From Naegleria gruberi (lineage: Eukaryota), in assembly GCA_000004985.1 (NCBI GenBank), contig GG739448.1: a stretch of DNA of 1,315 bases. One strand, given 5' to 3'. The position numbers and the translations under genes were made by a program. The notes under the pieces were generated by a model, which was given only the letters and a program-made list of their open reading frames with translations, did not search any database and was not told where the DNA came from. Numbering within the stretch: position 1 is the stretch's first letter; each line of letters begins with the position of its first letter. Shown piece by piece: positions 1 to 1,315 of the stretch.

Positions 1-100
1 TCCTATTCACATTCTGCAATAGCTGAGATCTAGATGTGTAATATTACTTAAATTTCCACTAGTGAATAAATTTGAAAAATTGGTCAATCTATGATTTCGA

Positions 101-198
101 AGTCCCAAATATTCCAAATTACTCATATCTTTCAACAATAATTTCAGTTCAGATTTAGTACCTTGAGTTATTTGCTGGGGAAGTCATCAAAATTACAC
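101..198 (+). pseudogene. Speculative degenerate relic of the 3' end of an LRR-family paralogue on the plus strand. Only the 29-bp core is clearly homologous. Scattered short matches (gaag.ccaaat, actcat, agatttag) upstream may be decayed homology or may be chance.
   Basis: The 29-mer lies in sense orientation on the plus strand. The short upstream k-mers also occur in the 40 codons preceding the 29-mer in the real gene, but only if large indels are allowed. No reading frame is preserved: the frame carrying GKSSKLH has a stop 3 codons upstream and diverges immediately downstream. Confidence 0.15.
170..198 (+). repeat. Left arm of a 29-bp near-perfect inverted repeat, atttgcTggggaagtcatcaaaattacac. 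It equals the reverse complement of 977-1005 with one mismatch at position 176.
   Basis: I compared the two arms base by base. The plus strand at 170-198 matches the sense strand of the minus-strand LRR gene at 28 of 29 positions, in the segment encoding DLQGKSSKLH. The flanks on both sides show no convincing extension of the match. Confidence 0.85.
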
Positions 199-801
199 AC
201 CCCATGTTTTTACCACCCTCTACCCTCAATGTTATTTCCCCGTTCAATTCCTGTTGCAGGAATGAATTTTCATTGTAAAATCTCCCACCACCAAAAACCG
301 TTACATCAATAAATATTTTGATGAGAAAAAATTCATCAAAGCACTCCAACATTCACCATCTTTTATTATTTGTCTGCACTCATGTAATAGTACTCCATCC
401 TTCAGGTGGATTTCTTCTCATCATTCTGTTTCTTCTTCGCCAGTTTTCAAGCCAAGTCGACATTTCCTACCAAATTCCCTTTCAACAAGTACCAAAAGGT
501 TAAAGTTGAGGGTAGGTTCTCCACCTACAATTACATCCAATGGTGATGTGTTTGGTGGTTTGCCTAAGTGCTGGTAGAGAAAACATACTCGGGTGGTAAA
601 TCTTCCATGCAGCCAACTGTTGTTCACCTCCAACAAGATGTTCTTGAAATTACTACTTTTTCTTGCTTTCAACAATCTCACAACCACCAAGATGCTGTTT
701 TGGGAGCAACAATCATAATTTCGGTCATTTCATCGAAAAATCTACCTGAACAAACAATCAATTTCCTGAACGTTTTCACATTTCATGCTATTTCCAAATA
801 A

Positions 802-904
802 TAAACATGACTTTGAATTAGTAGTATTATTAATTATTTAATTAATTTAAGAATTATTTTAATTTTATAATTATATTATTTATTAATATTAATTATTTCC
901 TTTT
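802..904. terminator. Extremely AT-rich (>90% A+T) 3'-flank / transcription-termination region just downstream of the minus-strand LRR CDS. It carries poly(A)-type signals on both strands: AATAAA on the plus strand at 800-805, and AATAAA on the minus strand as plus-strand TTTATT at 879-884, about 21 nt 3' of the 905-907 stop.
   Basis: Positions 811-900 contain fewer than 10 G/C bases. The region holds TATATA/TAYRTA-like elements (ttataattatattatt, 866-880) and AAWAAA-type elements typical of yeast 3'-end formation signals. It sits between the stop of the minus-strand gene and the end of the plus-strand ORF 568..801. Confidence 0.4.
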
Positions 905-1315
905 TTAATTTTTCTCAACCACCCTCATGTCCGACGTATTAAAAGATACCCAATTTTCAAAACACCCCTCCTCCAAGTGTAATTTTGATGACTTCCCCTG
1001 CAAATCTAAATGAGTGAGTTGACTAAAATGCTTTGAATTTGACATGGCTTCAAACAATTCATCTGAATAACTTTCTTGAACAATGTTGAATTTTTTAACA
1101 TTAGACATGAAGGTACTATTGAACAACTCTTTTGCTTCATTTTCTGTAAAATTTTGCACATCATGCAAGCTCAATTCTGTCAAATTCTTCATTGAGCATT
1201 TCGTTAAATATGTCACACGTTGACCTGCAATGTTATTAAATCTCAAATCCAATTTTGTCAAATTATCCAAATTCTTACAAGTTGAAAGAGTTTTAAAAGC
1301 ATCAAGTTGAGCTTT
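905..1315 (-). CDS. Partial CDS (5' end outside the window) for the C-terminal part of a leucine-rich-repeat (LRR) protein, ending at a TAA stop at 905-907. The visible translation is KAQLDAFKTLSTCKNLDNLTKLDLRFNNIAGQRVTYLTKCSMKNLTELSLHDVQNFTENEAKELFNSTFMSNVKKFNIVQESYSDELFEAMSNSKHFSQLTHLDLQGKSSKLHLEEGCFENWVSFNTSDMRVVEKN*
   Basis: This is the longest stop-free frame in the window. I translated the 45 nt above the listed ORF (1271-1315) by hand and the frame stays open to the window edge, giving K-A-Q-L-D-A-F-K-T-L-S-T-C-K-N. The 'M' at 1270 in the ORF track is a TTG codon, not ATG. LRR-like motifs are present: LTKLDLRFNNI, LTELSLHDVQNF, LTHLDLQGKSSKLHLEEGCF. There are five N-x-S/T sequons (NLT, NLT, NFT, NST, NTS). 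Codon usage is yeast-like (TTG-Leu dominant, AGA-Arg, no in-frame CTG). The stop is followed by an AT-rich 3' region with AATAAA on this strand. Confidence 0.6.
   Translation of the reverse strand, partial: KAQLDAFKTLSTCKNLDNLTKLDLRFNNIAGQRVTYLTKCSMKNLTELSLHDVQNFTENEAKELFNSTFMSNVKKFNIVQESYSDELFEAMSNSKHFSQLTHLDLQGKSSKLHLEEGCFENWVSFNTSDMRVVEKN
977..1005 (-). repeat. Right arm of the 29-bp inverted repeat. It lies inside the LRR CDS, where the plus strand reads gtgtaattttgatgacttcccctgcaaat and the sense strand reads ATTTGCAGGGGAAGTCATCAAAATTACAC.
   Basis: Same comparison as for 170-198. A 28/29 match cannot arise by chance in 1.3 kb; the expected number of such matches is far below 1e-9. Confidence 0.85.

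What the first reader, a model, noticed from the sequence alone, without database searches (positions are those of the whole stretch)
170..1005. Isolated 29-bp near-identical inverted repeat linking a non-coding region to the interior of the LRR gene
Positions 170-198 on the plus strand equal the reverse complement of 977-1005 at 28 of 29 positions. The right copy encodes DLQGKSSKLH within the minus-strand LRR gene. Homology stops abruptly on both sides, so this is not a long duplication. Possible explanations are a short gene-conversion or template-switch patch, the last recognisable island of a heavily decayed inverted paralogue, or a small dispersed repeat that happens to sit in coding sequence. 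LRR families in yeasts often occur in clusters with fragments and pseudogenes, and those would produce this kind of relic. In single-stranded DNA the two arms could pair as an ~800-nt-loop stem, which is probably not functional.
Basis: seen in the sequence. Interest (0 to 1): 0.5.

Follow-up and report, generated by a model that had tools for sequence, protein, structure and literature searches.

The report
Transposon insertion splitting a Naegleria gene
The 29-base inverted repeat marks the two ends of an 820-base non-coding mobile DNA element that has inserted into, and broken, an F-box/leucine-rich-repeat gene of the amoeba Naegleria; this is an ordinary event, mildly notable because the element's end features match a transposon group so far described only in animals.

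Summary
In detail: 170-198 pairs with 977-1005 at 28 of 29 positions, far beyond chance, and homology stops sharply at both ends. The left arm does not lie in non-coding DNA. The minus-strand LRR reading frame that enters the right arm ("…SQLTHLDLQ") resumes inside the left arm ("QITQGTKSELKLLL…"). Deleting 175-997 (823 nt) gives a 161-residue protein that matches Naegleria gruberi F-box/LRR protein NAEGRDRAFT_69941 at 154/161 residues with no gap. Six further family members also align on both sides of the insertion site, with nothing matching in between. The arms break down as a perfect 21-nt terminal inverted repeat (178-198 / 977-997, 5'-GGGAAGTC…), a 3-bp direct target-site duplication (CTG at 175-177 and 998-1000), and 5 nt of host sequence on each side that happens to be palindromic (ATTTG / CAAAT). 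The single mismatch is the centre of the duplication. The 778-nt interior has no detectable coding capacity. This is a non-autonomous cut-and-paste DNA transposon inserted in a gene. A CWG duplication, a GGG-initiated terminal repeat and its 21-nt length match the NuwaI group of the PIF/Harbinger-ISL2EU-Spy superfamily, but this rests on a single copy. Copy number, an autonomous partner and a DNA-level empty site could not be checked.

The parts
998..1315 (-). Upstream part (within the window) of an F-box/LRR gene, equivalent to residues 160-265 of N. gruberi NAEGRDRAFT_69941. The gene runs off the right edge of the window.
   Evidence: tblastn of P0001 and six paralogues: frame -1 HSPs end at about 998-1007. 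BLASTP of the joined protein: 154/161 identical, 0 gaps.
1001..1005 (.). Host flank CAAAT (+ strand), which on the minus strand is part of the codons GAT TTG (Asp-Leu). It is the reverse complement of the host flank at 170-174.
   Evidence: Encodes D-L, aligned to E-L of P0001. Coordinates.
998..1000 (.). Target-site duplication, copy 1: CTG on + (CAG on -, the Gln codon).
   Evidence: Direct repeat of 175-177. P0001 has only one residue (R265) at this place.
977..997 (.). Right terminal inverted repeat, 21 nt: GTGTAATTTTGATGACTTCCC.
   Evidence: Exact reverse complement of 178-198.
199..976 (.). Interior of the element, 778 nt, with no detectable coding capacity. It contains a 9%-GC degenerate AT-rich repeat tract at about 801-904.
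   Evidence: No Pfam hit in any ORF or masked six-frame translation. The longest open frame is no longer than composition predicts, P=0.30. No relatives of the concatenated ORFs. No tRNA or Rfam match. Composition and tandem repeats.
178..198 (.). Left terminal inverted repeat, 21 nt: GGGAAGTCATCAAAATTACAC.
175..177 (.). Target-site duplication, copy 2: CTG on + (CAG on -).
170..174 (.). Host flank ATTTG (+ strand), which on the minus strand is CAA AT of the codons CAA ATA (Gln-Ile).
   Evidence: Encodes Q-I, aligned to Q-I of P0001.
10..174 (-). Downstream continuation of the same F-box/LRR gene, equivalent to P0001 residues 266-320.
   Evidence: tblastn frame -2 HSP 177..10 against P0001 265-320, 53/56 identical. 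Six paralogues resume at 135-183.
905..997 (-). Read-through of the interrupted ORF into the element (GKSSKLHLEEGCFENWVSFNTSDMRVVEKN, then TAA at 905-907). This would give a truncated chimeric protein lacking the C-terminal half (~274 of 539 residues, judged against P0001).
   Evidence: Homology to P0001 is lost from this point.
7..9 (-). In-frame TGA directly after …LDLSYCRM, where P0001 continues LNSEF. Probably a 1-nt deletion, which would be a second lesion.
   Evidence: Only 9 nt remain before the window edge, so this is tentative.

Best explanation
The two arms are the ends of one 820-nt non-autonomous cut-and-paste (class II) DNA transposon occupying 178-997. It inserted into the coding sequence of a Naegleria F-box/LRR gene that lies on the minus strand. 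SHOWN: on the + strand the structure is ATTTG-CTG-[GGGAAGTC…778 nt…GACTTCCC]-CTG-CAAAT. SHOWN: the apparent 29-nt repeat is therefore 21 nt of true terminal inverted repeat, plus a 3-bp target-site duplication, plus 5 nt of host sequence that happens to be palindromic (the codons GAT-TTG-CAG-CAA-ATA). The duplication is self-complementary except at its centre, and that centre is the one mismatch. INFERRED from the established mechanism of DDE transposases: a transposase supplied in trans bound the terminal repeats, made a 3-nt staggered cut at a CWG target, and gap repair duplicated the CTG. SHOWN: the insertion breaks the reading frame. The ORF reads 30 codons into the element and stops, removing the C-terminal half of the protein. 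INFERRED: together with a probable frameshift at the left window edge, this copy is a disrupted allele or pseudogene. INFERRED: perfect terminal repeats and an intact duplication imply a recent insertion. TENTATIVE (about 0.45): the CWG duplication, the GGG-initiated terminal repeat and its 21-nt length match the NuwaI group of the PIF/Harbinger-ISL2EU-Spy (PHIS) superfamily.
For: Removing 175-997 (823 nt, length 1 mod 3) fuses the two minus-strand LRR frames into one open frame, whereas removing the full 29-nt-armed unit (836 nt) does not. The fused 161-aa protein found N. gruberi NAEGRDRAFT_69941 in an exhaustive HMMER search, E=1.5e-90, query 1-161 against protein 160-320. BLASTP gives 154/161 identities and 0 gaps. 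The uninterrupted ORF loses homology exactly at THLDL|QGKSS. tblastn of seven family members gives two HSPs each, in frames -1 and -2, ending at about 998-1007 and resuming at about 135-183, with nothing between. One family member (P0003) is a single uninterrupted ORF on its contig L001. The terminal repeats match 21/21, are flanked by a CTG direct repeat, and the mismatch sits at the centre of that repeat. The interior has no coding signal and no RNA family or tRNA. NuwaI is defined by a 5'-CWG-3' TSD, TIRs of 12-61 bp and TIRs usually starting GGG (PMC4482050).
Against: Only one copy was seen. The TIR was not found in the viral, prokaryote-genome or metagenome collections, so repetitiveness, the normal proof of a transposon, is untested. 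The empty site is shown only at protein level, because the DNA of the P0001 locus could not be fetched. An intron at that position in the annotated paralogues therefore cannot be formally excluded. The TSD length is ambiguous: A, CA, AG or CAG all describe the same sequence. At 820 nt the element is larger than most MITEs, which are mostly <500 bp (PMC10741241). NuwaI has been reported only from animals. No transposase partner was looked for or found.
Confidence: 0.85

Rival explanations
1. One reading: the left arm is the last recognisable island of a decayed inverted LRR paralogue, or a short gene-conversion or template-switch patch copied from the gene into nearby non-coding DNA.
For: LRR genes form a multi-copy family in this organism. 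On the + strand the left arm translates to LGKSSKLH, like the right arm.
Against: Stringent and permissive local alignments find no collinear homology beyond the 29 nt. The DNA to the left of the left arm is the downstream half of the same gene on the same strand, not an inverted fragment. The shared peptide GKSSKLH has no counterpart in any family member, so it is element sequence, not LRR sequence. The flanking 3-bp direct repeat is unexplained by this model.
Confidence: 0.02
2. The 823-nt segment is a spliceosomal intron of the LRR gene (ancestral, or recently gained from a transposon, i.e. introner-like) and is removed from the mRNA, so the gene is functional.
For: The minus-strand 3' end reads …TTCCCCAG|CAA, a plausible acceptor. 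Four cryptic GT…AG pairs are in frame and keep the ORF open. DNA transposons that create introns are known (own knowledge: Huff, Zilberman and Roy 2016, not read here).
Against: The only boundaries that restore the product collinear with P0001 are GG…AG, CA…CC, AG…CC or GG…CA, none of them GT-AG, GC-AG or AT-AC. The in-frame cryptic pairs would add 7-27 foreign residues in an LRR loop. The paralogue P0003 has no intron there. A second probable lesion (TGA at 7-9) suggests the copy is decaying.
Confidence: 0.06
3. It is a cut-and-paste transposon of a different superfamily from PHIS/NuwaI: for example an EnSpm/CMC-type or Academ-type element with a 2-4 bp duplication, or an undescribed lineage with a 1-2 bp duplication.
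For: The duplication length cannot be fixed from one copy. EnSpm shows 2-4 bp and AcademX 3-4 bp duplications. NuwaI is unknown outside animals. Kolobok is known in Naegleria and has RR…YY termini like this element.
Against: The termini are not CACTA/CACTG. Academ termini are 5' pyrimidine and 3' purine, whereas this element is 5'-G…C-3'. Kolobok requires TTAA duplications, absent here. There is no TA, TAA/TTA or 8-bp repeat at the flanks. CWG plus GGG plus 21 nt match all three structural criteria of NuwaI.
Confidence: 0.4
4. The arms are recombination sites of an invertible DNA segment that switches the C-terminus of the LRR protein.
For: A coding sequence runs into one arm of an inverted repeat, as in shufflon or invertase systems.
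Against: Inverting 199-976 places TPCFYHPLPS… followed by a stop after the arm, with no LRR or other recognisable sequence. Excision, not inversion, restores the gene. No recombinase is present in the window. The organism is a eukaryote.
Confidence: 0.01

Closest known systems
NuwaI group of the PHIS (PIF/Harbinger-ISL2EU-Spy) DNA transposon superfamily (Han et al. 2015, PMC4482050)
   Same: 3-bp flanking duplication of the form 5'-CWG-3' (CAG/CTG). Terminal inverted repeat within the 12-61 bp range (21 nt). First three nucleotides of the repeat are GGG.
   Different: NuwaI was reported only from 16 animal genomes, whereas this is a heterolobosean amoeba. This copy is short (820 nt against about 4.5 kb) and encodes neither the DDE transposase nor the Myb/SANT protein. 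Membership rests on one copy, with no transposase evidence.
Tourist-like MITEs / canonical PIF-Harbinger non-autonomous elements
   Same: Non-coding element with short terminal inverted repeats, a 3-bp duplication and insertion in or near genes.
   Different: The canonical duplication is TAA/TTA, but here it is CTG. The size of 820 nt is above the usual MITE range (mostly <500 bp). Copy number is unknown.
Kolobok transposons (reported from Naegleria; PMC9587614)
   Same: Present in the same genus. Termini are 5'-RR…YY-3', as here (GG…CC).
   Different: Kolobok makes TTAA-specific 4-bp duplications, and no TTAA flanks this element.
Introner elements (transposon-derived spliceosomal introns)
   Same: A transposon with terminal repeats and a short duplication sitting inside a coding exon, with a CAG acceptor-like end.
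   Different: No GT donor at the position needed for precise removal. No evidence of splicing or of many copies. The host copy appears damaged rather than functional.

Membership tests
Non-autonomous cut-and-paste (class II, TIR) DNA transposon | Terminal inverted repeats at both ends | tested here: met
   178-198 is the exact reverse complement of 977-997, 21/21; far beyond chance.
Non-autonomous cut-and-paste (class II, TIR) DNA transposon | Short direct target-site duplication immediately outside the repeats | tested here: met
   CTG at 175-177 and 998-1000. The length could be read as 1-3 bp; 3 bp is one of two symmetric readings, the other being a 1-bp A/T duplication with 22-nt repeats.
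Non-autonomous cut-and-paste (class II, TIR) DNA transposon | Homologous empty site lacking the element | tested here: met
   Met at protein level only: P0001 is collinear with 0 gaps, seven homologues align on both flanks of the insert and not to it, and P0003 is an uninterrupted ORF in L001. The DNA of the closest empty site could not be retrieved.
Non-autonomous cut-and-paste (class II, TIR) DNA transposon | No transposase coding capacity | tested here: met
   No Pfam hits, ORF lengths at chance level, no protein relatives.
Non-autonomous cut-and-paste (class II, TIR) DNA transposon | Multiple dispersed copies in the genome | not testable with these tools
   The source genome is not in the searchable collections. 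The TIR is absent from viral, GTDB-genome and metagenome contigs and from L001.
PHIS superfamily, NuwaI group | TSD 5'-CWG-3' | tested here: met
   CAG on the gene strand, CTG on +; definition from PMC4482050. Single copy.
PHIS superfamily, NuwaI group | TIR 12-61 bp, usually beginning GGG | tested here: met
   21 nt, 5'-GGGAAGTCATC…; definition.
PHIS superfamily, NuwaI group | Mobilised by a PIF/Harbinger-type DDE transposase with a Myb/SANT partner ORF, in an autonomous relative sharing the termini | not testable with these tools
   No Naegleria genome is available for searching and the element itself is non-coding.
Canonical PIF/Harbinger | 3-bp TSD TAA or TTA | tested here: not met
   The flanks are CTG; definition.
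CACTA / EnSpm | Termini CACTA/CACTG…TAGTG/CAGTG | tested here: not met
   The termini are GGGAAG…CTTCCC; definition. A 3-bp duplication would otherwise be compatible.
Tc1/mariner | TA duplication | tested here: not met
   No TA at either junction; definition.
hAT | 8-bp (5-8 bp) duplication | tested here: not met
   The direct repeat at the flanks is at most 3 bp. A longer duplication would not restore the P0001-collinear frame.
Kolobok | TTAA-specific 4-bp duplication | tested here: not met
   No TTAA at the junctions; definition.
AcademX | 5' pyrimidine and 3' purine termini, with a 3-4 bp duplication | tested here: not met
   The element begins with G and ends with C; definition.
Spliceosomal intron | GT-AG (or GC-AG / AT-AC) boundaries whose removal gives the conserved protein | tested here: not met
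   The boundaries that restore collinearity are non-canonical. In-frame GT…AG pairs add 7-27 residues.
F-box / LRR protein family of Naegleria (host gene) | LRR repeats, and collinear homology to annotated F-box domain-containing proteins | tested here: met
   LRR_4 scores 28.8 bits against a cut-off of 27 on the joined protein, which is 96% identical to NAEGRDRAFT_69941. The F-box region itself lies outside the window. The F-box hit in P0003 scores 24.7 bits against a cut-off of 20.5; in P0001 it scores only 17.5.

The most novel reading that the evidence does not exclude
The element is the first NuwaI-type (CWG-duplicating) PIF/Harbinger-superfamily transposon family seen outside animals. 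On this reading it was recently active in a heterolobosean amoeba and prefers an extended palindromic target, here ATTTG-CWG-CAAAT. That would imply either an ancient origin of the NuwaI lineage or horizontal transfer between animals and protists.
Probability: 0.3. Interest if true: 0.4.

Novelty: new member of a known kind. Interest (0 to 1): 0.3.

Why it matters
For the scan, this turns an unexplained isolated repeat into a fully explained structure, and it corrects the local annotation. The window holds one LRR gene split by an insertion, not an LRR gene followed by non-coding DNA. The open frame's last 30 codons and its stop at 905-907 are transposon sequence, and the AT-rich tract is internal to the element rather than an intergenic spacer. 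Biologically it is a routine transposon-in-gene event. Its modest interest is that mobile elements of Naegleria are poorly catalogued in the literature available here. The perfect terminal repeats suggest recent activity. The CWG/GGG signature would extend the NuwaI group beyond animals if confirmed. It also illustrates that a target-site duplication which is self-complementary, plus a palindromic target, can lengthen an apparent inverted repeat beyond the true transposon terminus.

Tried and rejected
(1) A word-index protein search with the uninterrupted 136-aa ORF found nothing. This was a false negative of the index, because the exhaustive search later found a 96% identical protein. (2) Exact scans for the 29-mer and 22-mer in viral, GTDB-genome and metagenome contigs found nothing. 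A protein-guided metagenome scan with P0001 also found nothing. (3) blastn of the whole window against plasmids and phages gave no match, which rules out a bacterial IS or phage origin within those collections. (4) tRNA and Rfam scans found nothing. (5) Pfam on every ORF and on the masked six-frame translation of the insert gave only sub-threshold noise. A concatenated-ORF search found no relatives, so there is no decayed transposase. (6) Fetching the DNA of the P0001 and P0002 loci failed because they are not on record. Only the more distant P0003 locus, L001, was obtained, and it does not contain the TIR. (7) Pfam scores of alternative joins did not discriminate between junction models; the homologue alignment did. 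(8) The inversion model was rejected because the inverted segment gives no LRR continuation. (9) A model with a 29-nt TIR and no duplication was rejected: it does not restore the frame, and the outer 5 nt of each arm encode residues conserved in P0001. (10) P0151's tblastn HSP runs 14 codons into the insert. This was examined and dismissed as ungapped drift across a variable loop. (11) Literature searches for Naegleria MITEs, introners or Harbinger elements found nothing specific. Yuan and Wessler 2011 and Feschotte and Pritham 2007 are not held.
Full report
OBSERVATION. The inverted repeat exists exactly as described. Positions 170-198 and 977-1005 are complementary at 28 of 29 positions, with 778 nt between the arms. 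A search with the 29-mer allowing three mismatches finds only these two sites, against zero expected in 200 dinucleotide-preserving shuffles. The exact core is 22 nt, whereas shuffled sequences give 9-18 nt. Similarity ends abruptly on both sides, and neither a stringent nor a permissive local alignment of 1-800 against 801-1315, in either orientation, finds anything else. The right arm lies in the open minus-strand frame 905..1270 and encodes DLQGKSSKLH.

WHAT SURROUNDS IT. The window has 32.6% G+C. Besides the LRR frame on the right, there is a second LRR-like minus-strand frame at the far left, from about 184 down to 7: LPQQITQGTKSELKLLLKDMSNLEYLGLRNHRLTNFSNLFTSGNLSNITHLDLSYCRM. It has no plausible start codon and begins inside the left arm. 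That suggested a single gene interrupted between the arms. Deleting 175-997 (823 nt, length 1 mod 3) fuses the two frames into one open LRR frame with a repeat period of 26 residues; the neighbouring repeats are 25-28 residues by my own count on the translation. Deleting the whole 29-nt-armed unit (836 nt) leaves the frames out of phase.

THE DECISIVE TEST. The fused 161-residue protein was searched exhaustively with HMMER against 1.84 billion representative proteins. The best hit, P0001, had E=1.5e-90 and covered query 1-161 against protein 160-320, so there is no net insertion or deletion. P0001 is Naegleria gruberi NAEGRDRAFT_69941 (XP_002674877.1, UniProt D2VLY3), annotated as an F-box domain-containing protein. 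BLASTP gives 154/161 identities and no gaps: P0001 reads …SQLTHLELRQIAQGTKSELKLLL… where the fused window protein reads …SQLTHLDLQQITQGTKSELKLLL…. The uninterrupted window ORF loses all similarity at THLDL|QGKSS, which is inside the right arm. tblastn of P0001 and six paralogues (P0002, P0003, P0004, P0007, P0151, P0152) against the window gives the same pattern each time. One HSP in frame -1 ends at about 998-1007, a second in frame -2 resumes at about 135-183, and nothing matches in between. P0151's HSP runs on to 956, but this is ungapped drift through a variable loop. One family member, P0003, lies on a retrievable contig (L001) as one uninterrupted 503-codon ORF. The segment between the arms is therefore an insertion into an F-box/LRR gene, not spacer DNA between a gene and a relic.

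ANATOMY OF THE ARMS. On the + strand the junctions read ATTTG-CTG-[GGGAAGTCATCAAAATTACAC … GTGTAATTTTGATGACTTCCC]-CTG-CAAAT. The bracketed ends, 178-198 and 977-997, are a perfect 21-nt terminal inverted repeat. CTG at 175-177 and 998-1000 is a direct repeat, and P0001 has a single residue at that place (R265), so one copy is a duplication. C and G are complementary, so the outer bases of the duplication extend the apparent inverted repeat. The outermost 5 nt, ATTTG and CAAAT, are host sequence. On the gene strand they belong to the codons GAT-TTG and CAA-ATA (Asp-Leu and Gln-Ile), which align with Glu-Leu and Gln-Ile of P0001. They are mutually complementary simply because TTG and CAA are reverse complements. 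The chance of a 5/5 complementary flank at this composition is about 0.0016. This hints at a preference for a symmetric target, but one site cannot establish that. The reconstructed pre-insertion sequence on the gene strand is …CAT TTA GAT TTG CAG CAA ATA ACT….

THE INTERIOR. The 778 nt between the terminal repeats give no Pfam match in any ORF or in masked six-frame translations. The longest open frames (103 and 102 codons) are not longer than expected from composition (P=0.30 for the longest). A search with all open frames concatenated found no relatives, although that index had earlier produced a false negative, so this point carries little weight. There is no tRNA or Rfam family and no similarity to plasmid or phage records. 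A 9%-GC tract with degenerate AT-rich tandem repeats at about 801-904 lies inside the element.

MECHANISM. A perfect terminal inverted repeat, a short flanking direct duplication, absence from homologous sites and lack of coding capacity together describe a non-autonomous cut-and-paste DNA transposon. From established knowledge of DDE transposases, I infer that a transposase supplied in trans bound the terminal repeats, made a 3-nt staggered cut in the target, and that repair of the gaps produced the duplication. The effect on the host gene is shown directly. The frame continues 30 codons into the element (GKSSKLHLEEGCFENWVSFNTSDMRVVEKN) and stops at 905-907, removing roughly the C-terminal half of a protein of about 540 residues. 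At the left edge the window has TGA directly after …SYCRM, where P0001 continues LNSEF. The remaining nine bases fit a one-base deletion, so this copy may carry a second lesion. The window is not the P0001 locus itself, because seven substitutions lie within the exons. P0001's nearest annotated paralogues are only 54-55% identical. The window is therefore an unannotated recent duplicate, another haplotype, or another strain.

COMPARISON WITH KNOWN FAMILIES. Repbase classifies non-autonomous DNA transposons by their termini and target-site duplication (PMC4482050's companion rule in PMC4455052). Most superfamilies fail on a defining feature. Tc1/mariner requires TA, canonical PIF/Harbinger requires TAA/TTA, hAT requires 8 bp, Mutator 7-12 bp, Sola 4 bp, Ginger TG…CA termini and CACTA requires CACTA termini (PMC10741241). 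AcademX requires 5'-pyrimidine and 3'-purine termini (PMC7165386). Kolobok, which is known in Naegleria and shares RR…YY termini, requires TTAA (PMC9587614). By contrast, Han et al. 2015 define the NuwaI group of the PHIS superfamily by a 5'-CWG-3' duplication, terminal repeats of 12-61 bp, and repeats that usually begin GGG (PMC4482050). All three are met under the 3-bp reading: CAG/CTG, 21 nt, GGGAAG…. That study found NuwaI only in 16 animal genomes, and its authors note that their transposase-based search may have missed MITE-like elements. I therefore describe the element as NuwaI-like and do not file it as a proven member. The assignment rests on one copy, the duplication could formally be 1-3 bp, and the defining transposase could not be examined.

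RIVALS. The paralogue-relic or gene-conversion reading is refuted, because no extended homology exists and the 'non-coding' flank is the same gene. An invertible segment is excluded because inversion yields no LRR continuation. A spliceosomal intron is unlikely. The only boundaries that restore the conserved protein are non-canonical, and the four in-frame cryptic GT…AG pairs would insert 7-27 foreign residues. However, splicing was not tested, and the annotated paralogues' gene structures could not be inspected.

VERDICT. It is a recent insertion of a short non-coding TIR transposon into a Naegleria F-box/LRR gene. This is ordinary biology, with a modest point of interest in the NuwaI-like signature outside animals. 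The main limits are that there is no access to a Naegleria genome to count copies, to see a nucleotide-level empty site, or to find the autonomous partner.

Noticed in passing
window 801-904: A tract of about 9% G+C with degenerate AT-rich tandem arrays (periods 8, 12, 17, 22). It looks like an intergenic spacer after the ORF's stop codon but lies inside the inserted element.
   Followed up: partly
window 1-12 (minus strand): TGA at 7-9 directly after …LDLSYCRM, where the 96%-identical protein P0001 continues LNSEF. ATGTGAATAGGA fits ATG-TTG-AAT-AGY-GAR with one base deleted, so this is possibly a second disabling lesion. Only nine bases of evidence remain before the window ends.
   Followed up: partly
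window about 160-180 and 995-1010 (minus-strand codons flanking the insertion): Three of the seven amino-acid differences from P0001 (D104E, Q106R, T109A of the joined protein) lie within five residues of the insertion site. This could be chance, a variable loop, or mutation associated with the insertion.
   Followed up: no
window 905-1315 (query): The word-index protein search returned nothing for a query that is 90-96% identical to a protein present in that collection (P0001). Negative results from that tool are weak for this kind of sequence.
   Followed up: yes
window 919-963 and 162-175 (minus strand): Four cryptic GT…AG combinations are in frame and keep the LRR ORF open, adding 7-27 residues. 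TGG|GTATCT at 949 joined to CCCCAG| at 175 is the most donor-like. Whether any is used is unknown.
   Followed up: partly
window 175-183 (minus strand) versus P0152 residues 270-272: The last six bases of the left terminal repeat plus the duplication translate to L-P-Q, and paralogue P0152 has L-P-Q at the homologous position. Taken as coincidence.
   Followed up: no
L001 600-2111: A Logan assembly contig (run ERR14653892) carries an intron-less family member, 46% identical over the joined 161 residues and to full-length P0001, with an F-box hit above the Pfam cut-off. This shows that reads from another Naegleria-like organism are publicly available.
   Followed up: partly
window 150-500: Strong C-over-G skew on the + strand (GC skew -0.25 to -0.52) and higher G+C (36-43%) than in the flanking LRR exons. 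The composition of the insert differs from that of the host gene.
   Followed up: no
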